A stretch of DNA of 64,000 nucleotides, taken from positions 1-64,000 of IMG/VR virus record IMGVR_UViG_3300040810_000833; one strand, given 5' to 3'. This document shows positions 4,541-64,000 of this stretch, piece by piece; positions within the stretch are counted from its first letter, which is position 1; each line of letters opens with the position of its first letter. The DNA comes from a virus (taxonomy: Duplodnaviria; Heunggongvirae; Uroviricota; Caudoviricetes). The position numbers were made by a program, and so were the translations under genes. The notes beneath the pieces were generated by a model. That model had not been told where the DNA came from, made no database searches, and was given only the letters and a program-made list of their open reading frames with translations.

Positions 4541-4544
4541 GTCG

Positions 4545-5714: not shown

Positions 5715-5770
5715 CGATCGTCGTTTCGTTCCGGCTTGCATCAGCCAGACTGCCCCGGCAGGCAATCGGG
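5715..5770 (-). repeat. Family-C repeat copy C5 (3' part diverged)
   Basis: cgtttcgttccggcttgcatcagccagactgccccggcaggcaatcgggc. Confidence 0.7.
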
Positions 5771-6656: not shown

Positions 6657-6805
6657 TTTATTTTCCTTCTTGGGGGTATAATACTTTATCTTTTACTGAA
6701 AGTGGAAAAACATGAAAGCAATTCCAGAAAGCGGCGTCTCTGAAATGGTTAAAGCAGATTTATCTGTTCCAGACCCGCCAACAAATATAGCAATGGGAAT
6801 AATTA

Positions 6806-17206: not shown

Positions 17207-17659
17207 ATGGCTTTAAAAGGTGATCGTCACGAGCTAGATACAGATATTTCATACTTCATGAATGAAACGGCTACTCGTGGGGTTATGGTGTCCGTAAGCA
17301 CTCAGGGTTCTGGTGCTGCTATGGACAGTTCTTCTTCTGTCGCGACTGTAGCGGCTGAAGCTTCCGGTTCAAAACCGCTTGGTATTCTCCTTAATGACGT
17401 TGTGAACATCGACCAAACTCGACAACACATCAACTGGCATAAGGACGAAGTCCAGCAGGGTAGCAAGGTCACTATCTTGACAAAAGGGTTTGTTGTTACC
17501 GATCAAATCGACGGAACACCAACTGCTGGTCAGGTAGCTTACATTGCTGATAGTGGTAAAATTTCTGGCAGCCAAGATGGTACGGCGTCAGCGATCGGTA
17601 GATTCCTTTCCACGAAGGATGCCGATGGTTATGCCAAAGTTTCAATTAACCTTCCTTGA
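17207..17659 (+). CDS. head decoration / small capsid-associated protein (putative)
   Basis: 150-aa ORF with a strong RBS between the scaffold and MCP genes. Confidence 0.3.
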   Translation: MALKGDRHELDTDISYFMNETATRGVMVSVSTQGSGAAMDSSSSVATVAAEASGSKPLGILLNDVVNIDQTRQHINWHKDEVQQGSKVTILTKGFVVTDQIDGTPTAGQVAYIADSGKISGSQDGTASAIGRFLSTKDADGYAKVSINLP

Positions 17660-44268: not shown

Positions 44269-44984
44269 TCTTTACCTTTCTTTATTTCTTCTGGAATTGG
44301 CTTTACGCCCTGCTTGTATTCATTGATTCTCTGTGTCATTTTCTTGGCGATTTCATGTGGTACGGCTTTTATTGTTGGGTATGTGTTTTCTCCGCTATTG
44401 ATAAACTGAACAACATCTACACCCAGCTTTTCGCACTGGCTTGTAATGTATCTTTCCTGATCCGCATTGATCAATCTATGGTCATCATCTGGTGATCTAT
44501 TGCTTCTAGCTCCCTCTTTTTCTGAGTGCTTCTTGTCTGTTAGTTTAGAGCATTCTTCTGCAGCCACTTGCCGTAATTTTAGTGCTTTTCTTAACGCTCT
44601 GGCTTCTGCCCTAGTGACCGCCATCGCAGCACCAAACACCTCAAAAGGAGAGTCTGTGTTATGGGCAGAGGAGTCGGCAGCGTCCGAGTAGACAACGGGT
44701 AGCGATTTATTGTCTGTCTGTATGGTAACTTCGTAAACGGCGAAGGTTTTTCCTATTGGTGTATCATCAGGATGATGAAATAGATTTTTAACTTCGCCTT
44801 TGACGATCGTACCAATCAGTAGTTCTGTAACCCTCCTCAATCCAGCGACTTTGGGTTTTGCGTCCCTTCCTTCCCCCACGAGTTCATCCGGAGCGAAAAA
44901 ACTCATTACGTGATCATTCCACTCCGGATCTGTCTGCAATATTTCCTTTTTGTTCTCTTCGTCAGATTCTGACTGCTTGCCCAT
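44265..44984 (-). CDS. hypothetical protein (239 aa)
   Basis: ORF, coupled. Confidence 0.4.
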   Translation of the reverse strand: MGKQSESDEENKKEILQTDPEWNDHVMSFFAPDELVGEGRDAKPKVAGLRRVTELLIGTIVKGEVKNLFHHPDDTPIGKTFAVYEVTIQTDNKSLPVVYSDAADSSAHNTDSPFEVFGAAMAVTRAEARALRKALKLRQVAAEECSKLTDKKHSEKEGARSNRSPDDDHRLINADQERYITSQCEKLGVDVVQFINSGENTYPTIKAVPHEIAKKMTQRINEYKQGVKPIPEEIKKGKE

Positions 44985-45813
44985 CCTTTACCTCGATTTC
45001 TATTAAACTGTCCTGTTCCTTCCCATCTGCAATAGCAGACACCTCTTGTATAATACATTGTAGCAGAATTGACATCTTTGTTCTTGAAATACTTTTGTCA
45101 ATTTGCCTGACTCTAAGTATTTTATATCCATGGCTTATCAGAATACCCTGTTTCGCCACGTCCGCTTGTTGTTGTTTTGTTAACTTTTCTTGGCCCCAGA
45201 TCGGCTCAAAGTGCTGCGGTCCATCAATCTCAATTGCGGTTCTTATTTCCGGAATGAATATGTCAACTTCAAGATTGCTACCGGGGGCGAGGCCTGACTT
45301 ATGAAATTCTACTTGATAGCCGTTATCCCGAAGACCCTCCATAATGAAACGCTCTGTTTTTGATCCTTCTTTACTCGCCCTTCTAACTTGCTCTAGTGCC
45401 AAAGCTCTAATTTCAGCCTGTTTTTCTGGACCTAGTTTTTTCCAGTTGTCTTTGCTGATCTGAGCCATTCGTTCCTTTTCGGCGTCAGTCATCCTGCTGT
45501 AGGCTTCTGCCCTAGCAGATCCTATGCTGTCCTTATGTTCTTGTGACAGCTTTTTTCCTTCCGTTGGATGCATGGCAGCACCAGACTCTAGGGCGACCTT
45601 TTGTGCGTCAGAGTAGCTTCTTCGATCGATACCCAAAAAGTTTAGTGCCCGCAATACTTTTTGCGGGTAGGTGTTAAGCTTCTTGGCGATTTGGTAGCTG
45701 CTCATGTTTTGATGAACATACATCTCTGTAATAACTAATCTGTTTTTTCTAGCAAATTCCATAACTTCTCCAGTTCGAATGATTCTAATATTCCATGAGG
45801 CAATCGCCCACAA
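44962..45813 (-). CDS. HTH + DUF559/Vsr-like (PD-(D/E)xK) endonuclease domain protein, homing-endonuclease-like
   Basis: N-terminal HTH (SSYQIAKKLNTYPQKVLRALNFLGI); C-terminal EVDIFIPEIRTAIEIDGPQHF ... GYKILRVRQ, which resembles the DUF559 pattern D..IP....aIE.DG..H / ..V.R. Confidence 0.45.
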   Translation of the reverse strand: MWAIASWNIRIIRTGEVMEFARKNRLVITEMYVHQNMSSYQIAKKLNTYPQKVLRALNFLGIDRRSYSDAQKVALESGAAMHPTEGKKLSQEHKDSIGSARAEAYSRMTDAEKERMAQISKDNWKKLGPEKQAEIRALALEQVRRASKEGSKTERFIMEGLRDNGYQVEFHKSGLAPGSNLEVDIFIPEIRTAIEIDGPQHFEPIWGQEKLTKQQQADVAKQGILISHGYKILRVRQIDKSISRTKMSILLQCIIQEVSAIADGKEQDSLIEIEVKDGQAVRI

Positions 45814-46214
45814 AGTCTGTAAAAGGGAGTGACATGGTCTTCTGACCTAAGAAAGACAGTGAGTCTTTCGTCGGTTAGTAATGAGTGCATAAACTCATAA
45901 TTTAACTCAGTAAACATCCAGTCAAGATCATAAAGGTATAGCACTTTCCTAGATGACGCAGCAGACCCGACTACTTTAGCCGCATTATTTATTGTTGTGC
46001 CTATTAATACACCATCGCAAAACGAGTGTACCTCTTCAGGGTTAACAATCGCCGTGTTTACATGAATAAATTCATTGGTAATATCTGCCGATGTTACTGA
46101 AATTTCCTCCAATGTCGAGGAGGTTATTCTCTCGATAGATTTGAACAACTCTCGATTTGCTTGAGAGAATCCAGTGTTGTCTAGAAAAATCATCGTTTTC
46201 ATTTTGTTCCCCAT
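45735..46214 (-). CDS. hypothetical protein (159 aa)
   Basis: ORF. Confidence 0.4.
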   Translation of the reverse strand: MGNKMKTMIFLDNTGFSQANRELFKSIERITSSTLEEISVTSADITNEFIHVNTAIVNPEEVHSFCDGVLIGTTINNAAKVVGSAASSRKVLYLYDLDWMFTELNYEFMHSLLTDERLTVFLRSEDHVTPFYRLCGRLPHGILESFELEKLWNLLEKTD

Positions 46215-46948
46215 GCACTCTTTTTGTTTTCGATTACAGTGCTTACCATATTACTCAAACCTACCCGCCTAAGGAATTCGATCATTCTGTCGTGACTTGT
46301 ATGAGCATCTTTGACGTCATCCCTAGATATTCCCGCAAAGAATTTGTCCCCTTTTATCGCTTTTGCTATATCTTGGTAAAATTGCCCTGGGTTTTGAAAC
46401 ACCACGGGGTTTCCGCCGGACGCGATGATGTTAAGTAGCCTGTACTTATCTGTAGGCATTGTGACGGCAGCTTTTGCCGATCTAATAATTACATCTTGAC
46501 TCACTGACGCCCCATTAAGTGATCCGCAATATCCGGAAACAAATGCCGGTCTCTTCTCGAAGAATTTAAACACAAATTCAGATTCTGTAAGTATCTTCAA
46601 TCCTTCCCCAAAAACCATTGGGTTACCTATATACACGACATCGCAAAAATAAATCGGAGATAATTCTTGCTGTTTTGACTGTGGCAAATAGGCAAACGGT
46701 TCTATTTTAGCGACATCTAGGTATAAAGACCGAGCATTGCTTTTGCTTGGTAGCTGTGTCTTTTTGTTAAAAATAACAACATCTGGTTTAGTTGCTTTAA
46801 GGATGCTTCTTGTTGCTTTTGTGTCACTTGATCTTTCTTGATTCGAGAATAACACTTGATGCTGTCCATTCGCCTCTAAGCACGAGGCTAGTCGGTTAAA
46901 TAAACTATACATAGGTTGGTCTTTAAATCCATGCACAAGCAATTTCAT
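46199..46948 (-). CDS. hypothetical protein, possibly a glycosyltransferase-like (GT-B C-terminal-like) domain
   Basis: Weak RLLNIIASGGNPVVF motif; uncertain. Confidence 0.3.
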   Translation of the reverse strand: MKLLVHGFKDQPMYSLFNRLASCLEANGQHQVLFSNQERSSDTKATRSILKATKPDVVIFNKKTQLPSKSNARSLYLDVAKIEPFAYLPQSKQQELSPIYFCDVVYIGNPMVFGEGLKILTESEFVFKFFEKRPAFVSGYCGSLNGASVSQDVIIRSAKAAVTMPTDKYRLLNIIASGGNPVVFQNPGQFYQDIAKAIKGDKFFAGISRDDVKDAHTSHDRMIEFLRRVGLSNMVSTVIENKKSAWGTK

Positions 46949-47673
46949 TCCAGTCCTCCTATCGGTTTTATGTTTATGCTATCCCTATTGTCAATGTAAA
47001 AATCAAAGACTTCAGACGCTTTGTTTAGTAGTTCGTAAATACTTAAAAATCCATACTCTGGCGAGTTGCATAACAGCTTAAAAACGTCATAGTTCTCTGA
47101 CGATATGTATGCAATCTCCGACCAAACATCCTCTAGCCCGTAAGATATATTTACTACCGATCCGTTGTTGTGGCAAATTCCAAGATTTTGATGGGAACGC
47201 ATCCTGCAGTGACTGTAAAGAAAAGACTTGGTAGTTTTTATCGGGGATAGCGTGCTTTCGTTAAAAGTTCTATCACCGTGGATGATGTATGTTGGGCCTT
47301 TTGTAGAAGCATTAATTCCAAGCCTCAGGCTTTCTAGCGAGCTGGTAGTTTCGTGACATTGGTTTTCGACAAGCCTAATGTCCCTATGTCTAGATATCGC
47401 ATAAGCAATTGTATCGCTAGAGTCAAACCCAACGACAAGTATAATTTCGGAGCGTGGATATTTTTTTCTTATTGTCTCTATCTGTCTATCGATTACGCAT
47501 TGATTTGGTCCATCGGTGCATAATGCTGGCGAGCACTGTCTTCCATTCTGTGTCACATAACCGGCAGAAAGTATAACAAAACTCAATTCTCTTTCTGTTT
47601 CATTTCTTCTAGTACCGCAAATATGCATTGATTTTCGCACACTAAAAAACCCTAGAAAGAACCTTCGGGACAT
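46945..47673 (-). CDS. putative sugar-phosphate nucleotidyltransferase-like protein
   Basis: FVILSAGY..NGRQ (L-x-x-G-x-G-x-R-like) and YIIHGD motifs; low certainty; true start may be internal. Confidence 0.35.
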   Translation of the reverse strand: MSRRFFLGFFSVRKSMHICGTRRNETERELSFVILSAGYVTQNGRQCSPALCTDGPNQCVIDRQIETIRKKYPRSEIILVVGFDSSDTIAYAISRHRDIRLVENQCHETTSSLESLRLGINASTKGPTYIIHGDRTFNESTLSPIKTTKSFLYSHCRMRSHQNLGICHNNGSVVNISYGLEDVWSEIAYISSENYDVFKLLCNSPEYGFLSIYELLNKASEVFDFYIDNRDSINIKPIGGLE

Positions 47674-48220
47674 GTATTGTTCTGACGCATGACGAAAAAA
47701 TCACACCAAGATCTTCTTCGGAAACCTCTTCTTTTGATAAAACTTCTGACGTTATGAGTCTTTTTGACATAAATAATGCAGGTGTGCTCATGTTCACTAC
47801 TGGCGGGGACCTTCTATACATCCTAATGCCACCCTGTGTATGGTCTCCGTACACAATGTCGTTTTCTAGGTTAGAAAACCAGTCCTCTATCGCCGACAAT
47901 TCCACCAGATGATTAGCTCTTAGAATACAGAATCCAGAGGTCTTATAATGGTTATCATCACCATTAAAAACGCTTTGAAGTACAGACTTAACGGCAGAGT
48001 CTTTGGTGGTTTCCACGCACCCGACTCCGTTCGGGATTTCAAGTTTTTCGCCGCTCGCATTGAATACATTTATGACCACGCTAACGTCGGCAGCAGCAGG
48101 GCGAATGAGTCCCAGTATTTTACCCCAGTCCTCCGCCGATTCAATGATGTAGTCAAGAGCTATAGGATTCATTAATCTGCTCCCATTTCCTAATGAACTC
48201 GTCGCCACCCCCCTGAACAC
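47642..48220 (-). CDS. hypothetical protein (192 aa)
   Basis: ORF. Confidence 0.4.
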   Translation of the reverse strand: MFRGVATSSLGNGSRLMNPIALDYIIESAEDWGKILGLIRPAAADVSVVINVFNASGEKLEIPNGVGCVETTKDSAVKSVLQSVFNGDDNHYKTSGFCILRANHLVELSAIEDWFSNLENDIVYGDHTQGGIRMYRRSPPVVNMSTPALFMSKRLITSEVLSKEEVSEEDLGVIFSSCVRTIHVPKVLSRVF

Positions 48221-48899
48221 TCCTTAGTTTTTCAGCGATCGACATTCCGATGTCTCCACGAAAGGCCTTATATGCTATCGCTGACGTAACTGCCATATGA
48301 TAGCTGTCATCAATCGGTTCTACATGAAGGATACGTTCAAGATTTAAATTCACCGCACAATTGACCTTATCGATCATTAATGGATCTATCTCCATCGAAG
48401 ATCTAACGACGAACATATAGCCGTTTTTACAACGCTTAAATGCCTCTTTGATTATCTGCTCTGGTTCAAAAACAAAGCATTTAACGCAAGAATACTCAGC
48501 AAACGAAAGTTCTTTTTTACAGATTTCTTGTATTCTAGAAGGCTTTATCTGTGAATGTGCAACAACGATCTTGAATCTTGAGATATTTTTTGTGACAGAA
48601 AGAGCCTTGGCGGTATTGACTAGACTGTCTTCGTCTTCTGCGACGATAATGATGCATCCGCGAATATAAACTTCTTTTTTTAATTCGCTAAGCGTCAAGT
48701 CTAAATCATCAGGGTAAGAACCTTTATTTCTTCTGTACTGACAGACTCTATGTATTACCGGACCTTCTCCATCTATTGATGGCGTAACCTTGGCACCGGC
48801 CTGTATAAACCTTTCCAGTATGCCAATGCTGCAGTCACTCGTTTTTGAGTCATAAAAATCACAGTTTCTGCAAACTGTGGCTAGTTTTAATTCAGCCAT
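48153..48899 (-). CDS. putative GT-A-like glycosyltransferase with an N-terminal zinc ribbon
   Basis: CRNCDFYDSKTSDC...C; GCIIIVAEDEDS resembles a GT2 N-terminal beta-strand plus acidic motif; uncertain. Confidence 0.3.
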   Translation of the reverse strand: MAELKLATVCRNCDFYDSKTSDCSIGILERFIQAGAKVTPSIDGEGPVIHRVCQYRRNKGSYPDDLDLTLSELKKEVYIRGCIIIVAEDEDSLVNTAKALSVTKNISRFKIVVAHSQIKPSRIQEICKKELSFAEYSCVKCFVFEPEQIIKEAFKRCKNGYMFVVRSSMEIDPLMIDKVNCAVNLNLERILHVEPIDDSYHMAVTSAIAYKAFRGDIGMSIAEKLRSVQGGGDEFIRKWEQINESYSS

Positions 48900-50542
48900 T
48901 TCTCCTCGCAGTCTATAAGTTTTGATCTATCGTTTCTTACTGATTCCCAGATGTTGTAATTATCAAGCCTTCTTCTAAAGAAGTTAAGTAGCTTTTCTCT
49001 TGTTAGCGGAGTTTTTACTGAGTCCGAAATTGGTGAGTTTTCTGTCGAAAAGAATCCGTCAAAAGACCCTCCAGTAACCCCTCTATTGAGATCCCTATGA
49101 AGGGACGCGACAAACTGAGAATTTTTATGCGACTCATTATATAGATAATTGTCAGACACGAACTGCATAAACGCAGCATTTGATAATTCATTCACAGGAT
49201 TGTTTGGCGTCTGAATGATCCGAGTCGGCTGCTTCCAATCGGCATACTCAGAACGATCTATTATATCAGACCAAACCCCCGCTGATTTTTCCCAGCTGTA
49301 GTTTTCTTCAAATTGACGCCTAGTTGATCTCGCTAGTTCTATCTGCTGATCTTTTGTCTTTTTTAAGAAGAACAACCTAAATGTATTCAGAATCGATTCT
49401 TTTTCTGGAGTCGCTCTATAACACCCCGTCTCTAATTCTTTGTATAGGGATTGTACCTTTAGGGGATATGCACCAGCCCTGTAAATAAGGTCATCCATCG
49501 CTGAATATTCAACAGATGCTAATGGAATTCCACAAGCCGCTGCTTCAACCTGCGGCAGGCCAAACCCTTCAGAGTTAGCACATTGAATATAGAAGTCGAA
49601 CAAGTTATAGATCTTTGCCAGCGTCTCATCGCTAACTCCAGACCCGACACTGGATGGTCTTGAGTCAAACTTTTTACATTTCCCGCACCGCCTTGCGGCA
49701 TCTCTAAAGTAGCAAACCTCTAAGTTTTTGCACGAACTGCAAACATAAGAAAACAAAACGCGAGACGAGATATTGTATTCGTTTAGTAGACTAGCTATAT
49801 TCCAGCCGTTATCAGGATAGCTTGTATGGCAGTATAAATAAGTGTTGGTCAACCCTGATGAATGAATGTATTCGGAAAAAGCTTCAAACAGTAAAGGATA
49901 GAGTTTCCGTCTTTGGTTACGCATGACGGTGCCAATTATTTTAACATTATTGTCAACGCCGAATTCTTCACGTATAGACGCCTTGTCCATAGGCCTGAAA
50001 CAATCAGATGCTGACGGAGAGGCCACTCCACATAGGTTCAGAGAGCTTCCAGCTTGTTTTTTTAGGACGTTGCTCGCCCATTCTGAATAGGTTAGTAGGT
50101 AATCAACATCACTAAATACACTCAGCCACTCATTATTTTGGGGGGCTGCGTCGACAGTAGGCATCCATGCCCACTGAAAGATTCGCCTAAACGGAGAGTG
50201 GTATATGAATGAATCCATCCAGTAATCACGGATCGAAAGAACAATATCTGGTTCAAAGTCTAGGCACACCCTCTCAAAACGCCAAGACCCGAACTGGTTA
50301 ACCTTTGACGAGTCGTATACACTGCAATGCTCTTTGTTGGACCCCTCTGGCATATTTGGGTAGTTACGCCATTTTATTGAACTTCTTCTGTCGTCATCAA
50401 CGCCGCCATAGCCAGAAAGCTCTGCCAGGTCGTATTTGCCAGAGTCGTGCAACCTATTCATGATTTCTCTTGTATAGGTCGCATAACCCGTACTAAGATA
50501 ACTAGCCTCTGTAACAAAGAGTACTCGTTTTTTTCTAGGCAT
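48887..50542 (-). CDS. glycosyltransferase family 1/4 (GT-B) with an inserted Cys-rich segment
   Basis: EGFGLPQVEAAACGIPLASV (E-x7-E motif), KRVLFVTEASYLSTGYATYT N-terminus; CSSCKNLEVC...CGKCKKF insertion. Confidence 0.75.
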   Translation of the reverse strand: MPRKKRVLFVTEASYLSTGYATYTREIMNRLHDSGKYDLAELSGYGGVDDDRRSSIKWRNYPNMPEGSNKEHCSVYDSSKVNQFGSWRFERVCLDFEPDIVLSIRDYWMDSFIYHSPFRRIFQWAWMPTVDAAPQNNEWLSVFSDVDYLLTYSEWASNVLKKQAGSSLNLCGVASPSASDCFRPMDKASIREEFGVDNNVKIIGTVMRNQRRKLYPLLFEAFSEYIHSSGLTNTYLYCHTSYPDNGWNIASLLNEYNISSRVLFSYVCSSCKNLEVCYFRDAARRCGKCKKFDSRPSSVGSGVSDETLAKIYNLFDFYIQCANSEGFGLPQVEAAACGIPLASVEYSAMDDLIYRAGAYPLKVQSLYKELETGCYRATPEKESILNTFRLFFLKKTKDQQIELARSTRRQFEENYSWEKSAGVWSDIIDRSEYADWKQPTRIIQTPNNPVNELSNAAFMQFVSDNYLYNESHKNSQFVASLHRDLNRGVTGGSFDGFFSTENSPISDSVKTPLTREKLLNFFRRRLDNYNIWESVRNDRSKLIDCEEKWLN

Positions 50543-51005
50543 GTTGCTTGATTCTTATCTTTGCTCTCTTGATTAATTGCGAAACTCTTGTATTGCTTAT
50601 CCCAAGGTTTGAAGCTACTTCTCTATGCGTGAGCCCGTTGTATTTCATAGTCACCACACGCCTTAGATCCGGTTCGGCGTCAGGGCCAACAAAATCTTCA
50701 AGATCGAGATGCTCTTCCGAATAACCACAATTAAAGGCGGATTCGATTGATAAAATTTTCTTGGAAGATTTGCCTGCTCTTGCAATTTCTTTGAGCATCG
50801 CGTTTCTAGATACATGGTAAACAAATGTTGTTTCTGCCCCCCTCGATCTGTCATATTTTTCCACGTTTTCAATTAAAGCCAAAAAGCCAGACTGGGCCAA
50901 GTCGTCGGGATGGTTCGAGTCATCACTTAGCTTGTGTGCAATACTCCATACTAGGTCACTATGTCTTTCAATTAACTCATGTGATTTCATTAAAAATCTC
51001 CTCAA
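50535..51005 (-). CDS. ECF-type sigma-70 family sigma factor
   Basis: Region 2 (DLAQSGFLALIENVEKYD) and region 4 HTH (REVASNLGISNTRVSQLIKRAKIRIK). Confidence 0.75.
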   Translation of the reverse strand: MRRFLMKSHELIERHSDLVWSIAHKLSDDSNHPDDLAQSGFLALIENVEKYDRSRGAETTFVYHVSRNAMLKEIARAGKSSKKILSIESAFNCGYSEEHLDLEDFVGPDAEPDLRRVVTMKYNGLTHREVASNLGISNTRVSQLIKRAKIRIKQHA

Positions 51006-51322
51006 ATAATTTCAAAATCATTTATCCTGAAGGTAACTATTCCTTCTTCAACTTTTGCCGTAGCATCTTTTATCAATATCCTGTCTCCCGGAATCAAATT
51101 TTCCTCGATAAAATCTGCTGCTGAACCCCAAATCGTGCAATCTATAATAGACTCGTCGGTTCTTCTTGCTTGATTTGCCCGTTTATTGAAAACCCTTACC
51201 GAAAACAATAGCCCGTCACACTGCTCTCCCTGTGCAAGCTCTTCATCTGATAGCGGTGTTCCATCTCCATGGATGGCTGTTTGACTCCCAACATGTTCAC
51301 CAAAAAATGTACATCTGTTCAT
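51002..51322 (-). CDS. OB-fold nucleic-acid-binding protein (SSB-like or detached polymerase OB domain)
   Basis: IDCTIWGSAADFIEENLIPGDRILIKDA layout resembles an SSB OB core; own RBS (TAGGAGGctgatATG). Confidence 0.35.
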   Translation of the reverse strand: MNRCTFFGEHVGSQTAIHGDGTPLSDEELAQGEQCDGLLFSVRVFNKRANQARRTDESIIDCTIWGSAADFIEENLIPGDRILIKDATAKVEEGIVTFRINDFEII

Positions 51323-51331
51323 ATCAGCCTC

Positions 51332-52894
51332 CTAAATTTCAAAAATGCGATCAACTATGAATGAATTTCTTTCGGCGTCCTTTATCTCGCCAGAGAGTAG
51401 CACGGTAGACCTCTCGTATATTATAGCCTTGTTCTGCTCGTACAAGTCTGGAAATATTACAATATTCTCCAGTTCTCCAGAATTGTCTTCCGCAGAAGCA
51501 AAAGCCATCAAATCCCCATTGCTTGTTCTGTGCTCTCGGAGTCTTGTAATCATTGCGGCGACGATGCAATTTCCACGTCTACCTTCGTTCACCTGTAGAC
51601 ATGTAGCGTTTGCGTGAGACGCATTTGAGCACGCCGTTAACTCCGAGTAGTTTATTGCATGACCTAAAAGACGTTCTTCTTCTCGGGCGTAAGTAACTGG
51701 ACTATCGCTCAGGTCTCTTCCGGGATTCTGGAGTCTCAACAGAATCTCTTGAACCTTATTCATTCTGCTGATACGTGAGATAAATCCACCCTCTTTCTTT
51801 AGACCTTTCCCTAAGAAACGCTCAACAAGTTCAGTTACAGACATGTCAAGGACGTTGAAGTATTCGCGAATGGAATTAATTTCTCCGTTAGTTAAGCCTT
51901 CGCTTATGCACTCAAAATCATGAAGCATTCGTGTCCTACTCTGACCAAAACCAGAAAATGCACCAGAGGAGATAAGACTTTTGACAGCCCGTTTATTTAC
52001 ATCTGTAAGGACGTGCATTAAAAGGAGGGTCCAATTGAATCTTTCTACCGGAATTCCAATGTCTTTAATTTTTTTTCTCAATTTGGCAACGTCTGAAGAC
52101 CCAACGTTTTTTATATTGCATAAACCAAAGGATATTATATGCTCGCCATCCTCGATCGACATCGTGAAATCTTCTTCGAGAAGTCTAATACTTGGACCTC
52201 TAAACAAAATCCCCTCCGACATAGCCGCGAGGATAAGCTGTCTTTTCTCAAGGTCTGGGTTGATTTTTTCCTTTGCGTCACGTAGCCACTCCCTAGTAAA
52301 TTTAAGAAACCTATAGTATCTTAGATATGCTGACCAGTAAGAAATTTTTGCATAAGCCACTGCGTGTGATTTATTGAATGAGTATCTAGCTGATTTCTCA
52401 ATCATGTCAAACACTTTGGTAGAAACATCGTTCGGTATACCATTTGAGGAGGCACCCTCTAGAAATTTAACCCTGATTTGACTCATTAGGTCAGCTTTCT
52501 TTTTACCGATCGCCTTTCTGAGATCATCCGCCTCCTTTAGGTTAAAACCAGCCATTTTCACGGCGATTTCCATCGCTTGCTCCTGATACACAATGACCCC
52601 ATATGTATTATCTACAACAGAGTCAATTGACGGGTGCAGTGATGGAACTTCATCCTTACCGTTCTTTCTGTCGGCGTAATGCTGCGTCATGGACTTTCCG
52701 TCCTGCTTCGCCTTTAATGTTCCAGGCCTTATGACACTAATTACATCCGCTAGTTCAAGTATTGATGTCGGCTTGATTGCTTTGCACCAGTGCTTACCAA
52801 GGCTCCCCTCAATTTGAAAACAGCCTTTTACGCGACCCTCGCCAAACATTCTCCATACATCTTGATTAGATTCATCTGCTTCGGTAATATTCAT
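51332..52894 (-). CDS. dnaE: DNA polymerase III alpha subunit (DnaE), C-terminal fragment (fingers / beta-binding region)
   Basis: KGCFQIEGSLGK...VISVIRPGTLKAK...TYGVIVYQEQAMEIA...LRKAIGKKK aligns with E. coli DnaE AVFQLESRGMKDL...ALFRPGP...YGIILYQEQVMQIA...LRRAMGKKK. Confidence 0.85.
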   Translation of the reverse strand: MNITEADESNQDVWRMFGEGRVKGCFQIEGSLGKHWCKAIKPTSILELADVISVIRPGTLKAKQDGKSMTQHYADRKNGKDEVPSLHPSIDSVVDNTYGVIVYQEQAMEIAVKMAGFNLKEADDLRKAIGKKKADLMSQIRVKFLEGASSNGIPNDVSTKVFDMIEKSARYSFNKSHAVAYAKISYWSAYLRYYRFLKFTREWLRDAKEKINPDLEKRQLILAAMSEGILFRGPSIRLLEEDFTMSIEDGEHIISFGLCNIKNVGSSDVAKLRKKIKDIGIPVERFNWTLLLMHVLTDVNKRAVKSLISSGAFSGFGQSRTRMLHDFECISEGLTNGEINSIREYFNVLDMSVTELVERFLGKGLKKEGGFISRISRMNKVQEILLRLQNPGRDLSDSPVTYAREEERLLGHAINYSELTACSNASHANATCLQVNEGRRGNCIVAAMITRLREHRTSNGDLMAFASAEDNSGELENIVIFPDLYEQNKAIIYERSTVLLSGEIKDAERNSFIVDRIFEI

Positions 52895-53562
52895 TTAATC
52901 GCCCTGAGTGAATTCTTAAAGGTAAGCCCGGATGCAAATCTTCTCAGATGGTGTTGCGTTCTACAAAAAACTTCTGCGGTCATTATTACGTCAGACATTG
53001 CGTCATGTGCAACACCCTTCGCATAACCCATATGTCCGCGAATCAGGTTATCGGCAGATAGCGAGTTTACTTCCTTGTTGTTTTCGAACAGGCAAAACAT
53101 AATTGACAAAAGGTCAACGCTATAAAACCTATTGAAGATATTTGGCCTTCCGTCCTTCTCTGGACCAAACTCTCTACACAACCTAGCTGCAATTACGGAG
53201 TCAAACTTATCTATATTGTACCCAACGGAAATTGGAGTATTCCAGTCGTTTTTCTTATAATTGTGTTCATCCACATAGGCCGCAAAGTTTTGCCAAACAG
53301 ACTTTGGTGACGGTGCATCCCTGAGCATCTCCTCCGTCTTTCCATGTATATTTATCGACTCTTGTGTGAGTGGATCAACACCCATTTCTGAACATTTCGC
53401 ATGATCAAACTCTGGTCTGATTAAAGACTGGAACTCAGACGCCTGTTTAATTTCAAGTTTTCGCCCATTTATCGCAACTGCTGCAATTTGCACCGCTTGG
53501 GTTGTGCTTGGGTTCGCTGATGTAGTTTCAAAGTCGTAAACAATATAATCTCTGTAATTCAC
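52891..53562 (-). CDS. DnaQ-like 3'-5' exonuclease (DEDDh, epsilon-like)
   Basis: Exo I YDFETT; Exo III H-x-A-x-x-D (GVAHDAMSDV); 223 aa. Confidence 0.8.
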   Translation of the reverse strand: MNYRDYIVYDFETTSANPSTTQAVQIAAVAINGRKLEIKQASEFQSLIRPEFDHAKCSEMGVDPLTQESINIHGKTEEMLRDAPSPKSVWQNFAAYVDEHNYKKNDWNTPISVGYNIDKFDSVIAARLCREFGPEKDGRPNIFNRFYSVDLLSIMFCLFENNKEVNSLSADNLIRGHMGYAKGVAHDAMSDVIMTAEVFCRTQHHLRRFASGLTFKNSLRAIK

Positions 53563-53572
53563 AAATTACCCC

Positions 53573-55390
53573 TTATTCTTCTGATGTTCTTGCTATCTTT
53601 CCAAGTATTGATAACCCGAGGATATCAAACTTAACACAACCAATAGATTCTAAGTCGTTCATTTCCATACCGGCAATCTTCTCAGAGCCTCTAGACGCCT
53701 TTACCATTGGACATATATCATCTAAATTGTCTGATGCAATTACAACGCCAGCGGCATGCTTTCCCTGTGTCTTAAAGATGCCTTCCATACGCATGGCTTG
53801 ATTGAACTCTCTTGCATATTGCCCCTCTATGACACCCTCGCTATTGATCCAGCAATAGTCGGCCAATGACTCCCTATCATTTTCTAGCGTCCATCTAATA
53901 ACTGAAGGGTCTTCCATTTCCTCCAGAAGGTCTGAAATGGCAGACTCCGACTGAATAGCCTCTGTTATTCTATTCATTTCGTCGAACGTGCATGACTCGT
54001 TTGTTCTCAAAACCTCTTTTAATATTGATCTTCCAGCAAGCCTTCCAAATGTTAGCATTTGGCAGACCCTTGAGTCTCCGTATTTTCCTCTAAGGTACTT
54101 AATTACTTCGTCTCTATATTCTGGAGGAAAGTCGACATCAATATCAGGAAGTGATACATGATCCTCTGTATTTCTACCCTCATTATAAAACCGCTCAAAA
54201 ATCAAACCATATTCGATTGGATCAATTAACGTAATACCCGTCAGGTAACAAACTAACGATCCACCTCCAGAACCCCTGCCGGGTCCAACTAAGCACCCAA
54301 GACGTTTGAAGTGATTCACGTAGTCTTGTACAATCAGAAAGTACCCAGCCAGTTCCGCCTTCTCAATTACGGAAAGTTCGCTAAGTACCCTGTCCCTATA
54401 GATACTAATCTTTTCCTTGGGTATTTTGTTGAGCAGTAACTTTTTCCATCCATCTCTGCAGAGTTGCTTCAGGTATTCGTTCTCCGATTCGCCGTTCGGC
54501 GTTTCAAAGTGCGGAAGGCGTGGGCGTGAGAGTATTTCAATGTCTTCACACAACCCAACAACCTCTTCAAGGTTTGCTCTTGCTGTCTCGTTGTACCACT
54601 CGGTAATCTGAGCCATTGATTTGATATTGTAAGAACTTCTTCTGATAAACTTCAGTAGGTTTATATCTTGGGTCTCGTCTATTTTTTCAGCCAGTTTTCG
54701 TAGAGTTGTCTTCAGTCTTACACACACAAGAACTCTGTGATCAACAGCGTCTGTTCGATCGGGGTAGTAACTTGACGTATCTGGTATGACGCAATCTAAG
54801 CCATGCAACATGTCGCCAAGAACCGAGATCACTGGAAAGCTATCGTCACCAGGGCTTAAATCTATTTCGACGTAATAGTGTGAGAATATAGATCTTGCAT
54901 TAGAAATATAGGCGTCAAGATCCCATTCGCTGCTTATACAGCCGCTAACAGAGTCTGCGTCTAGTGCGTTGAAGACGCACTCCAAGCTGCTAAACATATT
55001 GTGGAAAAGTCGACTTCCGACATACCCATCGATGCACACAAAATTTGATGGTGTTATCGATGACAGCAGATTATCAAACGGTATTTTTGGGCATTTGTCA
55101 TGATTTTCTTCTGAGTTAGCAATTGAAGTGACGTTGAGTAACTCACGCCACGCCTCTTTATTCCTGCATATCAGCGTGATTGAACCACCGTCAGACAATA
55201 CAATTTCTGACCCTATGATTGGCTTGATTCCGTTCTTTTTACAGCATTGAATAAACTTTACGCAGCCGCTGATTGTCGCGAAGTCTGTCAGACCTGCATA
55301 GCAATACCCAAGCTCTTTGGCTTTCCCAACTATCTGTTCGACCCTTGACGTCGACAACGTTAAAGAGTAGTGACTTTTGTTTCTAAGCAT
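53573..55390 (-). CDS. dnaE: DNA polymerase III alpha subunit (DnaE), N-terminal fragment (PHP + palm/thumb)
   Basis: PHP-like N-terminus (LTDFATISGCVKFIQCCKKNGIKPIIGSEI); catalytic PDIDVDF motif; ends at the conserved KFDILGLSILG segment. Confidence 0.85.
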   Translation of the reverse strand: MLRNKSHYSLTLSTSRVEQIVGKAKELGYCYAGLTDFATISGCVKFIQCCKKNGIKPIIGSEIVLSDGGSITLICRNKEAWRELLNVTSIANSEENHDKCPKIPFDNLLSSITPSNFVCIDGYVGSRLFHNMFSSLECVFNALDADSVSGCISSEWDLDAYISNARSIFSHYYVEIDLSPGDDSFPVISVLGDMLHGLDCVIPDTSSYYPDRTDAVDHRVLVCVRLKTTLRKLAEKIDETQDINLLKFIRRSSYNIKSMAQITEWYNETARANLEEVVGLCEDIEILSRPRLPHFETPNGESENEYLKQLCRDGWKKLLLNKIPKEKISIYRDRVLSELSVIEKAELAGYFLIVQDYVNHFKRLGCLVGPGRGSGGGSLVCYLTGITLIDPIEYGLIFERFYNEGRNTEDHVSLPDIDVDFPPEYRDEVIKYLRGKYGDSRVCQMLTFGRLAGRSILKEVLRTNESCTFDEMNRITEAIQSESAISDLLEEMEDPSVIRWTLENDRESLADYCWINSEGVIEGQYAREFNQAMRMEGIFKTQGKHAAGVVIASDNLDDICPMVKASRGSEKIAGMEMNDLESIGCVKFDILGLSILGKIARTSEE

Positions 55391-56458: not shown

Positions 56459-57352
56459 TTATCTAAGTTCAAATCGTTTTGGGGAAGTTGTAAATTCTCC
56501 ATCCCTATTTCTTTTCTGGCTCCCAAAGTTTTTCATCCTTTGTATACATCCAAGCCTTACGAGTTCATTTAGTAATGACTCGCACGACTCTTCGATCGTC
56601 ATTGATTGGTTTTCGATGACAGCATCAAATTTATCGTATCTGTCTAGCTGTGTCTCGCTCTCGTGAGAGCTTTGGTGTAAAGACCTTTTTAACCTAATGA
56701 CCTTTCCGCCAGCATTTTGGACCGCTTTCGCCTCGTTGACAAATCTGCAGTCAGATATTACAGCGATTGGTGGTGCATCCTCAGCAATCCTAGATATACA
56801 GTTATCAACCCACACCGGCTCATAAATCTTACGCATAACATCTGTACCAAAAAATTGCATGAATTCACGAGCAGTCATTGGGCCTGGGGTATGATACACA
56901 AACCCAAATTCACTTGGGTCTGTATTACCATTCTTAAAAGCAGGTCTGTCAACATAAACGCCCGGCATATTTTCCCACAGTAAATGCTCTTGTAGTTGGT
57001 TCTTTTGCTCGTCAGTTCCGTACAAACATTCGTAAGGAATTCTAAAAAGCGTCATGCAAATCTCTTTCAGTGAATCTGCAAAGTTGTACTCTCTGACAAA
57101 CGGCCATATATTATCCTCGGCATATCTGTAAAACTGGTGACTCCTTTGCGAGAGATCCATAAACCCTTCTGTCGAAGCCTGTTTTCCATTCTCGTCGGTG
57201 TAATCGAATTTAACAAAAAACTCCCCAGTTTCTGGGTGAATCGAAAAGCTATTGATCGATTCGCTTCGAAGCATTTCATAACCATGAATGAAATTAGAAA
57301 GAGTCCCTTTTCCGGACTGCTTTTTCCCGCACAGTGCTATTATCACAGTCAT
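56459..57352 (-). CDS. deoxynucleoside monophosphate kinase-like (T4 gp1-like) P-loop kinase
   Basis: N-terminal IIALCGKKQSGKGTLSNFI vs T4 gp1 IFLSGVKRSGKDTTADFI; ISDCRFVNEAKAVQNAGGKVIRLKR vs T4 VPDTRQDHEMDAARAMGATVIHVVR. Confidence 0.55.
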   Translation of the reverse strand: MTVIIALCGKKQSGKGTLSNFIHGYEMLRSESINSFSIHPETGEFFVKFDYTDENGKQASTEGFMDLSQRSHQFYRYAEDNIWPFVREYNFADSLKEICMTLFRIPYECLYGTDEQKNQLQEHLLWENMPGVYVDRPAFKNGNTDPSEFGFVYHTPGPMTAREFMQFFGTDVMRKIYEPVWVDNCISRIAEDAPPIAVISDCRFVNEAKAVQNAGGKVIRLKRSLHQSSHESETQLDRYDKFDAVIENQSMTIEESCESLLNELVRLGCIQRMKNFGSQKRNRDGEFTTSPKRFELR

Positions 57353-63582: not shown

Positions 63583-64000
63583 CTAAAAATCTCCATGTTC
63601 CAGTGCTCTCAAGACTCTGCCAATAATACCGTTTCTTTGTATATCCTCGTAGCTCAGGGTGCAGACTCCGACACCCTCCACCGTTTTTAGTTTATTCGTT
63701 AAAACAGATAGACCATTCTGTCCACCAATGTCTGACTGCTTAACGTCGCCATTGATAACTATTTTAGAGTCTCTACCCATTCGTGTTATGAACATTTTTA
63801 ATTGTTCTAGGGTACAGTTTTGAGCTTCGTCAAGGATCATGCATGATCGATTAAAGGTCGCACCACGCATGACCTCTAAAGGCTCATACCGGATTCTTCC
63901 ATTGTTTAGGTGATTTCCATAATTTGCCTGACCAAGAAAAGACCTTATATTTTCTTCTATAGGTTTTAGGTATGGGGCTATCTTCTCATGCATCTCTCCA
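63583..64000 (-). CDS. phoH: PhoH-like ATPase, C-terminal part (gene start lies beyond the window end)
   Basis: ILDEAQNCTLEQLKMFITRMGRDSKIVINGDVKQSD is a PhoH signature. Confidence 0.75.
   Translation of the reverse strand, partial: GEMHEKIAPYLKPIEENIRSFLGQANYGNHLNNGRIRYEPLEVMRGATFNRSCMILDEAQNCTLEQLKMFITRMGRDSKIVINGDVKQSDIGGQNGLSVLTNKLKTVEGVGVCTLSYEDIQRNGIIGRVLRALEHGDF

What the first reader, a model, noticed from the sequence alone, without database searches (positions are those of the whole stretch)
45735..51005. Sigma-factor-headed glycosyltransferase / nucleotidyltransferase cluster: a candidate glycosylation or hypermodification module
Six co-oriented, translationally coupled genes lie behind an ECF-type sigma. 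They include a confident GT4/GT-B glycosyltransferase with an unusual Cys-rich insertion, a probable GT-A enzyme with a zinc ribbon, a sugar-nucleotidyltransferase-like protein and further unknowns. In phages such clusters either glycosylate virion proteins, remodel the host surface for superinfection exclusion, or glycosylate DNA bases. The nearby T4-gp1-like dNMP kinase (56459-57352) and the MTase-like gene (8350-8958) are the kinds of enzymes seen with DNA hypermodification pathways. I cannot assign the target, and I recognise none of the unknowns.
Basis: partly seen in the sequence, partly recalled or inferred. Interest (0 to 1): 0.65.

Follow-up and report, generated by a model that had tools for sequence, protein, structure and literature searches.

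The report
Phage glycan-building gene cassette, target unknown
This uncultured aquatic phage carries, right behind its DNA polymerase genes, a small set of soluble sugar-transferring enzymes that is conserved across a very large family of related environmental phages; it most likely decorates a phage-made molecule with sugars (virion protein more likely than DNA), but the target cannot be read from sequence.

Summary

The block is not "sigma-headed". It is the tail of a roughly 19-kb gapless replication array. The order PolC - SSB-like - (sigma in only 37 loci) - GTZ ... GT-A ... NT recurs in about 60-70 of 84 related metagenomic loci. GTZ alone has at least 2,354 protein clusters. Relatives add up to about ten further GTs, an epimerase/dehydratase and an FkbM methyltransferase.

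My reading is a cytoplasmic glycan-assembly cassette whose acceptor is probably virion protein (about 0.4). DNA glycosylation is less likely (about 0.2).

The parts
50535..50990 (-). Two-domain (sigma2 + sigma4) ECF-type sigma factor, 151 aa from ATG 50990; the ORF is open from TTG 51005. It is probably the phage late sigma, not a functional part of the glycosylation set.
   Evidence: Pfam Sigma70_r2 8e-16 and r4_2 6e-8. TIGR02937 77 bits against cut-off 42.9. RBS and ATG read. Present in only 37 related loci. dN/dS 1.15 against L001.
48887..50542 (-). GTZ: GT4-type, GT-B-fold glycosyltransferase of 551 aa. It is the lineage-wide core gene and is predicted to be active. A helical C-terminal extension spans about residues 430-551.
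49676..49741 (-). Zinc-ribbon-like insertion in the C-terminal Rossmann domain of GTZ: C268-x2-C271-x14-C286-x2-C289.
   Evidence: The four Cys are invariant in 57 sequences and in locus homologues. Extra strands E262-268, E274-278 and E292-296 appear in the model.
49544..49570 (-). EX7E motif of GTZ (E325 ... E333, 'SEGFGLPQVEA'), the signature of retaining GT4 enzymes.
   Evidence: E325, G326, G328 and E333 are invariant. Upstream R208 and K213 are also invariant.
48153..48899 (-). g248: a 248-aa protein with an N-terminal Cys4 module (residues about 8-57) and a GT-A-fold domain that lacks a DXD motif. It is the second core gene of the lineage.
48729..48872 (-). Cys4 module of g248 (C10, C13, C23, C53, plus R57).
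   Evidence: Invariant in 40 locus homologues and in 75 database sequences. It is the best-conserved part of the protein.
47642..48172 (-). g192: an ORFan of 176 aa (192 aa from GTG 48220). It sits where relatives carry a GT2 or a small unknown protein.
   Evidence: Only one cluster matched in 1.84 billion representatives. Found only in the window and L001 among the loci. No profile-profile match to any locus family. dN/dS 0.12.
46945..47673 (-). NT: LicC/IspD/MobA-like nucleotidyltransferase of 242 aa, the third core gene. In this phage the signature loop is degenerate (A37-G-Y-V-T-Q-N-G-R-Q instead of A-G-x-G-x-R-M-K-S).
   Evidence: Homologous to L002 15338-16081 (7.6e-20), which hits NTP_transf_3 at 2.1e-15 and IspD at 2.7e-9. 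The family profile hits LicC 1jyk at 2.4e-15, GlmU at 3.9e-10 and IspD at 4.9e-7. The loop was read in alignment A7. Present in 54 loci. dN/dS 0.08.
46199..46948 (-). g249: a Glyco_trans_1_2-like (GT-B C-domain type) protein of 249 aa.
   Evidence: hhalign probability 98.1%, E 1.4e-13, over residues 1-245 to locus family f14. The L006 member of f14 hits PF13524 at 1.4e-21. dN/dS 0.17.
45735..46214 (-). g159: an alpha/beta protein of unknown function, 155-159 aa.
   Evidence: Family present in 28 loci. W99 is invariant. No Pfam, PHROG, NCBIfam or PDB match and no profile match to other locus families. dN/dS 0.11.
44962..45762 (-). Flanking gene, probably not part of the cassette: a DUF559/Vsr-like endonuclease of 266 aa, homing-endonuclease type.
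   Evidence: phrog_559 4e-16; DUF559 8e-4. Profile-related endonuclease ORFs interrupt the PolC gene in L014, L037, L038 and L077.
51332..52894 (-). Upstream anchor: the C-terminal half of the split DnaE polymerase (PolC), followed by a small SSB-like gene at 51002-51322. These always lie directly upstream of GTZ.
   Evidence: phrog_405 4.4e-91. PolC lies two or three ORFs upstream of GTZ in every related locus where both were called. PolC was found in 83 of the 85 sequences searched (84 loci plus the window).

Best explanation
The six genes form a reduced version of a soluble, cytoplasmic glycan-assembly cassette. The cassette is a core feature of a very large, so far uncultured lineage of aquatic tailed phages.

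Shown:
- The window version has three glycosyltransferase-fold proteins: a retaining-type GT4 with intact EX7E and a Cys4 ribbon, a DXD-less GT-A with a Cys4 module, and a Glyco_trans_1_2-like protein.
- It also has a LicC/IspD-like nucleotidyltransferase and two proteins of unknown fold.
- All are under purifying selection and all overlap as one translational unit at the end of the replication-gene array.

Inferred:
- The nucleotidyltransferase, or host pools, supplies an activated sugar or phospho-alcohol.
- GTZ, the only transferase present in every relative, starts the glycan on the acceptor. The other transferases extend or decorate it.
- Relatives swap in up to about ten further GTs, a sugar epimerase/dehydratase and an FkbM methyltransferase, so the glycan differs between phages.
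- The acceptor is most probably a phage virion protein made in the same cell. Candidates are the cement protein (17207-17659), the capsid protein (17681-18691) and the Ser/Thr-rich 802-aa protein (18796-21204). This would resemble chloroviruses and some mycobacteriophages, with the glycan shielding or tuning the particle surface.
- The two Cys4 modules would serve acceptor or partner binding.
For: Enzyme identities.

Catalytic residues of GTZ are invariant (E325, E333, R208, K213).

Purifying selection on all six genes: dN/dS 0.08-0.31.

Lineage-wide synteny with a variable GT complement:
- Relatives carry GT4 (several copies), GT2, GT8, GT47/RXYLT1-like, DUF6492, DUF5672, Glyco_trans_1_2, NAD-epimerase/dehydratase and FkbM methyltransferase.
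- That is the make-up of a heteroglycan pathway, not a one- or two-sugar DNA tag.

No membrane segment in any cluster protein: maximum 19-residue Kyte-Doolittle mean is 1.67 or less. No flippase or polyprenyl-phosphate transferase appears in any locus. The acceptor is therefore soluble and intracellular.

GTZ and g248 are near-neutral (pI 6.45 and 6.46).

Precedent for a Cys4 metal finger in a protein-glycosylating GT-B enzyme: TibC (PMC4358343).

Evidence against DNA as the target is listed under the rival.
Against: - No glycosylated protein is shown, and no sequence feature marks any virion protein as an acceptor.
- The acceptor of B736L itself is unproven.
- The cassette sits in, and is contiguous with, the replication module rather than the structural module. 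It abuts DNA polymerase in every relative. That position is what one expects for a DNA-directed function.
- The known virion-glycosylation genes of mycobacteriophages are accessory, whereas GTZ, g248 and NT are core here.
- In this particular phage the nucleotidyltransferase lacks the canonical Arg/Lys loop and g248 lacks DXD, so two of the parts may not act as classical enzymes.
Confidence: 0.4

Rival explanations
1. DNA glycosylation or hypermodification. GTZ and g248 add sugars (or a CDP-activated group made by NT) to bases of replicating phage DNA to block host nucleases, as in T4, RB69/DLP3/HY126 or the methyltransferase-dioxygenase-GT pathways.
For: - The cassette lies directly downstream of the DNA polymerase and SSB-like genes in every relative and is contiguous with the replication array.
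- The dNMP kinase is conserved in the lineage.
- A C5-methyltransferase-like gene lies at 8350-8958.
- The three core genes are universal in the lineage, as DNA-modification genes usually are.
- T4 itself has a-gt a few genes downstream of its late sigma gene 55.
- Two Cys4 ribbons could bind nucleic acid.
Against: - No thymidylate-synthase homologue or 5-methylpyrimidine dioxygenase appears in the window or in 10-kb flanks on both sides, by precomputed Pfam.
- A ThyA tblastn over 1.6 Mb of the window plus 94 loci gave a best E of 0.17. Known pathways are normally clustered (10.1101/2023.12.21.572611).
- GCGC is absent from the whole window (0 seen, 117 expected; z -19) and from its flanks and close relative. 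Other members have eliminated GATC (0/66) or CCGG (0/27). In all, 24 of 84 loci lack one 4-mer palindrome entirely.
- In T4, whose cytosines are glucosylated, G/C-only palindromes sit at expectation (GCGC 44/47, CCGG 50/45, GGCC 37/31).
- Up to about ten GTs plus a methyltransferase in relatives far exceeds any known DNA glycan.
- GTZ and g248 are not basic.
- Structural similarity to DNA GTs is only generic.
Confidence: 0.2
2. Host-directed or small-molecule glycosylation. The soluble GT4 and its partners act on a host lipid, cell-wall precursor or metabolite. Examples would be a glycolipid or teichoic-acid-type decoration for superinfection exclusion, or phosphorus-sparing lipid remodelling during replication.
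For: - The next-best structural and HMM neighbours of GTZ use lipid or small-molecule acceptors: BshA, sucrose-phosphate synthase, PimA, MshA and GlcN-phosphatidylglycerol synthase.
- The NT family is nearest to enzymes that activate phospho-alcohols (LicC, IspD/TarI, PntC, inositol-1-phosphate cytidylyltransferase).
- The phage carries other metabolic genes, PhoH and a class I ribonucleotide reductase.
- Peripheral GT4 enzymes need no membrane segment.
Against: - No flippase, polyprenyl-phosphate transferase or membrane protein is in any of 84 loci.
- The phage looks lytic (no integrase seen), so serotype conversion has no obvious use.
- A variable set of up to ten GTs is hard to reconcile with one metabolite.
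- Strict linkage to the polymerase genes and universal conservation are not typical of auxiliary metabolic genes.
Confidence: 0.15
3. A decaying or non-catalytic remnant. In this phage the cassette has lost most transferases found in relatives, and the remaining NT and GT-A-like proteins are inactive, so the block no longer makes a glycan.
For: - The window lacks the two extra GT4 genes and the ~140-aa gene present in most relatives.
- The NT signature loop is degenerate.
- g248 has K where 85% of relatives have D151, and it has no DXD.
- g192 is an ORFan in the place of a GT2.
Against: - All six genes, including NT (0.08) and g192 (0.12), show strong purifying selection against a relative with dS of 0.1-0.2.
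- The GTZ catalytic motifs are intact.
- Even smaller versions (GTZ + g248 + NT only) are stably kept in L034, L061 and L017.
Confidence: 0.05

Closest known systems
Chlorovirus glycosyltransferase B736L (PDB 3oy2) and the autonomous capsid-glycosylation machinery of chloroviruses and other giant viruses
   Different: Sequence identity is only 15%. B736L has neither the Cys4 ribbon nor the ~120-residue C-terminal extension. Its own acceptor is unproven. The host here is a prokaryote and the cassette lies in the replication module.
Virion glycosylation operons of mycobacteriophages (Che8, Corndog, Myrna; Freeman et al. 2023, cited in PMC12619734)
   Same: Tailed phages that encode several GTs (with methyltransferases) which glycosylate capsid and tail-tube subunits in the cytoplasm. 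The make-up of the relatives' cassettes is similar in kind.
   Different: No sequence relationship was shown. A tblastn of GTZ against 50,697 phage records found four matches, none in a mycobacteriophage. Those genes are accessory and not linked to the polymerase. No acceptor tail is recognisable on the capsid protein here.
Phage DNA glycosylation: T4 alpha/beta-glucosyltransferases, RB69/DLP3/HY126 arabinosyl-5-hydroxycytosine clusters, and methyltransferase-5mYOX-GT pathways
   Same: GT-B and GT-A transferases with a nucleotidyltransferase next to replication genes. The pyrophosphorylase of the arabinosylation clusters also resembles LicC. T4 has a GT near its late sigma gene.
TibC/AAH autotransporter heptosyltransferases (BAHT family)
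   Same: A GT-B-fold enzyme that glycosylates proteins in the cytoplasm and carries a four-Cys metal ('iron-finger') motif (PMC4358343). This is the nearest precedent I know for a Cys4 finger inside a GT-B transferase.
LicC CTP:phosphocholine cytidylyltransferase, and IspD/TarI cytidylyltransferases
   Same: The NT family profile matches LicC at 2.4e-15 and IspD at 4.9e-7. Most family members keep the A-G-x-G-x-R-M-K-S loop.
   Different: The window protein has Q-N-G-R in place of R-M-K-S and reaches no curated threshold on its own. The substrate is unknown. No LicD-type transferase was recognised nearby.

Membership tests
GT4 retaining glycosyltransferases (GT-B fold) | Two-Rossmann-domain GT-B fold | tested here: met
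GT4 retaining glycosyltransferases (GT-B fold) | Match to the Glycos_transf_1 HMM above the curated threshold | tested here: met
   29.9 bits against 26.4, over residues 302-352 only. Homologues carry PF00534 and PF13692.
GT4 retaining glycosyltransferases (GT-B fold) | EX7E motif and Arg/Lys phosphate binders | tested here: met
   E325 and E333 are invariant, and R208 and K213 are invariant, in 30 and 57 sequences.
GT4 retaining glycosyltransferases (GT-B fold) | Glycosyl transfer from a nucleotide sugar with retention | not testable with these tools
   Needs an enzyme assay.
GT-A fold glycosyltransferases (GT2-like) - for 48153-48899 | GT-A (single Rossmann-like alpha/beta/alpha) fold | tested here: met
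GT-A fold glycosyltransferases (GT2-like) - for 48153-48899 | DXD (or equivalent acidic) metal-binding motif after beta-4 | tested here: not met
   The position reads R-S-S-M-E here and S-[AS]-G-E in most relatives. No acidic column reaches 90% in the GT-A domain.
GT-A fold glycosyltransferases (GT2-like) - for 48153-48899 | Match to a GT2-type HMM | tested here: not met
   No Pfam, PHROG or NCBIfam family. No PDB sequence match with the family profile.
Sugar / phospho-alcohol nucleotidyltransferases (NTP_transf_3, IspD, LicC) - for 46945-47673 | Family HMM or profile match | tested here: inconclusive
   The window protein alone gives only weak hits (MocA 2.2e-4; Glyco_tranf_2_3 0.036). Its homologues reach 2.1e-15, and the family profile hits LicC at 2.4e-15.
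Sugar / phospho-alcohol nucleotidyltransferases (NTP_transf_3, IspD, LicC) - for 46945-47673 | N-terminal G-x-G-x-R-(M/L)-x-S/K nucleotide-binding loop | tested here: not met
   The window and L001 read A-G-Y-V-T-Q-N-G-R-Q. Most of the 40 aligned relatives read A-G-x-G-x-R-M-K-S.
ECF-type (group 4) sigma factors - for 50535-50990 | Only sigma2 and sigma4 domains, with an HMM match above threshold | tested here: met
   Sigma70_r2 and r4_2. TIGR02937 77.2 bits against 42.9; 151 aa.
ECF-type (group 4) sigma factors - for 50535-50990 | Cognate anti-sigma factor and a defined promoter | not tested
   No anti-sigma candidate was looked for. GGNGTATW is a weak lead only: 5 of 13 matches lie in plus-strand intergenic regions.
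Phage DNA hypermodification pathways with glycosylation | An enzyme that makes the hydroxylated base (thymidylate-synthase homologue or 5-methylpyrimidine dioxygenase) | tested here: not met
   None in the window ORFs scanned, in precomputed Pfam for the flanks and the structural region, or by ThyA tblastn over 1.6 Mb. The genome end regions were not fully recovered.
Phage DNA hypermodification pathways with glycosylation | Transferase specifically related to known DNA GTs | tested here: not met
Phage DNA hypermodification pathways with glycosylation | Relaxed selection against restriction sites that contain the modified base | tested here: not met
   GCGC 0/117, CGCG 62/103, GGCC 127/167 in the window. 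The T4 control is at expectation for these sites.
Phage DNA hypermodification pathways with glycosylation | Non-canonical bases in virion DNA | not testable with these tools
   Needs LC-MS/MS or sequencing kinetics.
Virus-encoded virion-protein glycosylation (chlorovirus / mycobacteriophage type) | Soluble viral GTs with no lipid-carrier or export machinery | tested here: met
   No membrane segments. No flippase or polyprenyl-phosphate transferase in 84 loci.
Virus-encoded virion-protein glycosylation (chlorovirus / mycobacteriophage type) | Glycan shown on a structural protein | not testable with these tools
   Needs mass spectrometry of particles or of co-expressed proteins.
Seroconversion (GtrABC-type) O-antigen modification | Membrane GtrA flippase, bactoprenol-linked GtrB, and membrane GtrC | tested here: not met
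   No hydrophobic segment of membrane-spanning strength in any cluster protein. No matching families.

The most novel reading that the evidence does not exclude
The universal triad is a Cys4-ribbon GT4, a Cys4-module DXD-less GT-A-fold protein and a LicC-like nucleotidyltransferase. It is welded to the DNA polymerase genes in thousands of environmental phage genomes. It could be a new kind of nucleic-acid- or replisome-directed modification system that needs no thymidylate-synthase homologue or dioxygenase. For example, it might attach a sugar or a CDP-activated phospho-alcohol to DNA (base, backbone or ends), to an RNA, or to a replication protein, with the two Cys4 modules providing nucleic-acid recognition.
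Probability: 0.1. Interest if true: 0.85.

Novelty: new variant of a known kind. Interest (0 to 1): 0.55.

Why it matters
Virus-encoded glycosylation is known from giant viruses, a few mycobacteriophages and T-even-type DNA modification. It has not been described as a core trait of an abundant aquatic phage lineage. Here one uncharacterised GT4 family (at least 2,354 protein clusters, many from Tara Oceans samples) sits in a fixed position next to the polymerase and is followed by a highly variable set of further transferases.

If the product coats the virion, phage surface glycans could be a widespread and diversifying factor in adsorption, particle stability or grazing and immune recognition in the sea. 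If the product is on DNA, it would be a modification route outside the known hydroxymethyl/hydroxy-pyrimidine schemes.

Either way, the three core proteins are small, soluble and easy to express, so the question can be tested without culturing the phage. The Cys4-bearing GT-B and the DXD-less GT-A are also new architectures for glycosyltransferase enzymology.

Tried and rejected
- **Nucleotide and protein searches against cultured phages.**
  - Megablast of 45000-51400 against 50,697 phage records gave no match.
  - tblastn of GTZ gave only four hits at about 20% identity: S-EIVl, TJE1 (two records) and Mae-JY09. The S-EIVl neighbourhood is unrelated.
  - tblastn of the polymerase half gave at most 30% identity to any cultured phage. 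I found no cultured relative.
- **PDB profile searches.** The g248, g239 and g159 families gave nothing usable.
- **Profile-profile comparisons.** g192, g159 and g248 against all locus families gave nothing. Only g249 matched f14, and g140 matched f21 weakly at 71%.
- **Exhaustive phmmer of g192.** One cluster only.
- **Promoter and terminator scan of 43-52 kb.** Counts were at shuffle level and uninformative.
- **Late-promoter motif.** GGNGTATW is not enriched overall (13 seen, 9.8 expected), although 5 hits lie in plus-strand intergenic regions. I kept it only as a lead.
- **Literature search for the lineage.** The 'moraphages' of PMC12619734 are T4-like jumbo myoviruses, not this group. Nothing else was relevant.
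- **Look-up of 427-966.** Not on record.
- **BFVD fold search of GTZ.** No full-length viral counterpart; best TM-score 0.60 normalised by query length.
- **General palindrome depletion as proof of unmodified DNA.** I considered this and rejected it, because the T4 control is also depleted overall (mean z -3.4; GATC 59/163). Only the contrast at G/C-only sites and the complete elimination of single sites is used.
- **The endonuclease at 44962-45762 as a T4-EndoII-like host-DNA nuclease tied to the cassette.** I considered this and rejected it, because related ORFs interrupt the polymerase gene in four loci, as homing endonucleases do.

Full report
**1. What is at the coordinates**

The window is part of a tailed-phage genome.
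- A plus-strand structural module runs from about 6.8 to 43.7 kb. It holds the large terminase at 11504-13522, the portal at 13584-15710, a cement protein at 17207-17659 and the tape measure at 28533-34376.
- A minus-strand replication module runs from 64 kb down to 43.8 kb.
  - It holds a RecA-like gene, DnaB, primase, a T4-gp1-type dNMP kinase and a PD-(D/E)XK exonuclease.
  - Its DnaE polymerase is split as PolN 53573-55390 / DnaQ-like exonuclease 52891-53562 / PolC 51332-52894.

The finding's seven ORFs are all present on the minus strand.
- They overlap one another by 4 to 32 nt (68 nt if the annotated GTG start of 47642-48220 is used).
- The array from about 63112 to 43846 has a single gap of 40 nt or more.
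- Only 11 nt separate the upstream SSB-like gene from the sigma start at ATG 50990.

The block is therefore the tail of the replication array, not a unit headed by the sigma factor.

**2. Identities of the genes**

- **Sigma (50535-50990).** It has sigma2 and sigma4 domains only and clears the curated 'sigma70-ECF' threshold.
- **GTZ (48887-50542).**
  - It clears the Pfam Glycos_transf_1 threshold and hits phrog_2170.
  - The AlphaFold model (pLDDT 87.5) is a GT-B fold.
  - The retaining-GT4 signature E325-x7-E333 and the residues R208 and K213 are invariant in homologues.
It is invariant and is modelled as three extra strands in the C-terminal Rossmann domain.
  - A helical extension of about 120 residues follows.
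- **g248 (48153-48899).**
  - It has no sequence-family match anywhere.
  - Its best-conserved part is an N-terminal module with invariant C10, C13, C23, C53 and R57.
  - The GT-A domain has no DXD and no acidic column above 90%.
  - So 'GT-A with a zinc ribbon' is right as a fold statement. Membership in catalytic GT2 is not established.
- **NT (46945-47673).**
  - It is homologous to proteins that hit NTP_transf_3 and IspD.
  - The family profile is nearest to LicC CTP:phosphocholine cytidylyltransferase (2.4e-15), then GlmU, IspD and PntC.
  - In this phage and its 96% relative the nucleotide-binding loop reads A-G-Y-V-T-Q-N-G-R-Q instead of A-G-x-G-x-R-M-K-S.
- **g249 (46199-46948).** It matches, at hhalign probability 98%, a locus family whose members hit Glyco_trans_1_2 at 1.4e-21.
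- **g192 (47642-48172).** It is an ORFan, with one cluster in 1.84 billion representatives.
- **g159 (45735-46214).** It has a 28-locus family but no recognisable relatives.

Against the 96%-identical contig L001, dN/dS is 0.14 (GTZ), 0.31 (g248), 0.12 (g192), 0.08 (NT), 0.17 (g249) and 0.11 (g159). The sigma gene gives 1.15. All six are real genes under constraint, including the two with degenerate motifs.

**3. Comparative context**

A scan with a GTZ alignment returned 76 viral contigs and 8 contigs binned into unrelated MAGs. These MAG placements are most simply mis-binned phage DNA.

The gene order is strikingly fixed:
- primase - dNMP kinase - exonuclease - PolN - exonuclease subunit - PolC - SSB-like - (sigma) - GTZ - ... 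- g248 - ... - NT - ...

Presence across the loci:
- GTZ in 72 loci, g248 in 59 and NT in 54. Most absences are contig ends.
- The sigma gene in only 37 loci.
- The smallest versions are GTZ + g248 + NT (L034, L061, L017).

Most relatives insert more genes:
- two further GT4 genes, a ~140-aa unknown, a GT2, a GT8, GT47/RXYLT1-like proteins, DUF6492 and DUF5672;
- an NAD-dependent sugar epimerase/dehydratase and an FkbM methyltransferase.

The last protein search found at least 2,354 GTZ clusters, many from Tara Oceans samples and on contigs up to about 148 kb. No cultured phage carries a close relative. The window cassette is thus a reduced member of a lineage-wide, compositionally variable glycan-synthesis cassette.

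**4. What is the acceptor?**

*Membrane-linked routes are unlikely.* No cluster protein has a membrane-spanning segment. No locus holds a flippase or polyprenyl-phosphate transferase.

*DNA was tested in three ways.*
- **Base-hydroxylating enzyme.** Every known glycosylated-DNA pathway needs a thymidylate-synthase homologue or a 5-methylpyrimidine dioxygenase, usually clustered with the GTs.
  - None is in the window ORFs scanned.
  - None is in 10 kb beyond either end. The right flank holds PhoH and a class I ribonucleotide reductase; the left flank holds small early genes.
  - None is in the precomputed Pfam for the structural region.
  - A ThyA tblastn over 1.6 Mb of the window plus all loci gave nothing.
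  - The genome ends are not fully recovered, so this is strong but not complete.
- **Restriction-site content.**
  - GCGC is entirely absent from the 64-kb window (117 expected, z -19), from its flanks and from L001.
  - Other members lack GATC (L002, 0/66) or CCGG (L018, 0/27). In all, 24 of 84 loci of 10 kb or more have lost one 4-mer palindrome completely.
  - As a control, 50 kb of T4, whose cytosines are glucosyl-hydroxymethylated, has GCGC 44/47, CCGG 50/45 and GGCC 37/31.
  - T4 is depleted in GATC, so I use only the G/C-site contrast and the complete eliminations, not overall palindrome depletion.
  - Elimination of different sites in different members is the signature of DNA that is exposed to cleavage, whether by a host or by a phage nuclease.
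- **Structural neighbours.**
  - GTZ and g248 are near-neutral proteins.

*Points in favour of DNA remain.*
- The cassette abuts the polymerase everywhere.
- The lineage keeps a dNMP kinase.
- 8350-8958 has C5-methyltransferase motifs (FSG, PPC, ENP).
- DNA-arabinosylation clusters also pair GT4-like enzymes with a LicC-like pyrophosphorylase.
- T4 has a-gt just downstream of its late sigma gene.

**5. Mechanism proposed**

Shown:
- a set of soluble glycosyltransferase-fold proteins and a nucleotidyltransferase-fold protein;
- co-translated, conserved, and with an intact GT4 active site.

Inferred:
- GTZ starts a glycan on a soluble intracellular acceptor, and the other transferases extend it.
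- NT (or host pools) supplies an activated sugar or phospho-alcohol.
- The Cys4 modules bind the acceptor or hold the enzymes together. TibC is a precedent for a Cys4 finger in a protein-glycosylating GT-B enzyme.
- The acceptor is a virion protein, by analogy with chloroviruses and mycobacteriophages.

| Acceptor hypothesis | Probability |
|---|---|
| Virion protein | about 0.4 |
| DNA | about 0.2 |
| Host lipid or small molecule | about 0.15 |
| Inactive remnant | about 0.05 |
| Other acceptors (RNA, replication proteins) | remainder |

**6. Comparison and novelty**

The cassette works like known virus-encoded glycosylation systems, but none of its proteins belongs to a characterised subfamily.
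- GTZ is a GT4 with two additions not seen in B736L.
- g248 fails the DXD test for GT2 membership.
- The window NT fails the signature-loop test.
- The fixed position next to a split DnaE polymerase and the lineage-wide core status differ from both the mycobacteriophage and the giant-virus cases.

I rate it a new variant of a known kind.
- Interest is moderate to fairly high (0.55), because the family is very abundant and the core proteins can be tested without a cultured host.
- It is held down because the target is unresolved and phage GT clusters as such are familiar.

Noticed in passing
whole window 1-64000; also L001, L086, L090, L091; L002, L018 and others: The tetranucleotide GCGC is completely absent (0 seen, 117 expected, z -19). 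Several 6-mer palindromes are also at zero. Relatives have eliminated GATC (L002, 0/66) or CCGG (L018, 0/27). In all, 24 of 84 related loci lack one 4-mer palindrome (GCGC in 21). A T4 control shows no such loss at G/C-only sites. The cause could be a host HhaI-type restriction system or a phage nuclease; this is undecided.
   Followed up: partly
window 51332-55390; L001 6845-9211; L002 6050-8968; L014, L037, L038, L077: The DnaE-type polymerase is split into two ORFs with a DnaQ-like exonuclease gene between them, throughout the lineage. The C-terminal half carries an intein with an HNH domain in L001 and one with a LAGLIDADG domain in L002, but none in the window. In four loci an endonuclease ORF splits it further.
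   Followed up: partly
window 50535-50990: Against the 96% relative L001, the sigma-factor gene has 25 non-synonymous and 6 synonymous differences (dN/dS about 1.15). Its neighbours are at 0.05-0.31. This suggests fast or relaxed evolution of the sigma factor.
   Followed up: no
window 6806-7303: An ORF at the head of the plus-strand structural module gives a weak Sigma70_r2 match (E 0.0075). It may be a second, divergent sigma-like protein.
   Followed up: no
window 8350-10228: A 202-aa protein with C5-cytosine-methyltransferase motifs (FSG, PPC, ENP; phrog_757 1.6e-56, but no Pfam, NCBIfam or PDB hit) overlaps a 435-aa DUF1501 protein (E 2e-107). DUF1501 is a sulfatase-superfamily family that, from my own knowledge, is typical of Planctomycetes and Verrucomicrobia. 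This may hint at the host, or it may be an unusual auxiliary gene.
   Followed up: partly
window 6673, 13528, 15744, 18752, 24975 (plus strand): The motif GGNGTATW occurs in five of the nine plus-strand intergenic regions upstream of structural genes, although it is not enriched in the window as a whole (13 seen, 9.8 expected). It is a candidate late-promoter -10 element. Minus-strand copies lie inside the sigma gene (50940) and g159 (46006).
   Followed up: partly
window 18796-21204: An 802-aa Ser/Thr/Gly-rich protein lies directly after the capsid gene. It contains a near-exact internal duplication of about 70 residues ('VSVLNNDAGYLTSHPSVSAASGSDNSGRTYIQDVFLDQYGHVT...') and has no family match. 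It may be a head fibre and is a candidate glycan acceptor.
   Followed up: no
window 1-6700 and L090 / L092 (left flank): At least 16 kb of small minus-strand ORFs (50-190 aa) have no family matches and are separated by regular spacers of about 200-300 nt. This is an early region with many possible repeated promoters. GC rises to 0.53 at 4-6 kb.
   Followed up: no
window 47642-48172: g192 has a single matching cluster among 1.84 billion protein representatives, yet dN/dS is 0.12. It is a genuine young or fast-diverged gene in the slot where relatives carry a GT2.
   Followed up: yes
window 63583-63993 and L086 (right flank): PhoH is cut by the window end. Upstream of it lie a class I ribonucleotide reductase (large subunit with ATP-cone, plus small subunit) and about ten further unknown genes, so the genome exceeds 84 kb.
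   Followed up: partly
L079/L082, L080/L084, L077, L078, L081, L083: Contigs carrying this phage module are binned into MAGs of unrelated phyla (Flavobacteriales, SAR202, Verrucomicrobiales, Roseovarius, Paceibacteria, Dehalococcoidia). These are probably binning artefacts, so the MAG labels give no reliable host.
   Followed up: no
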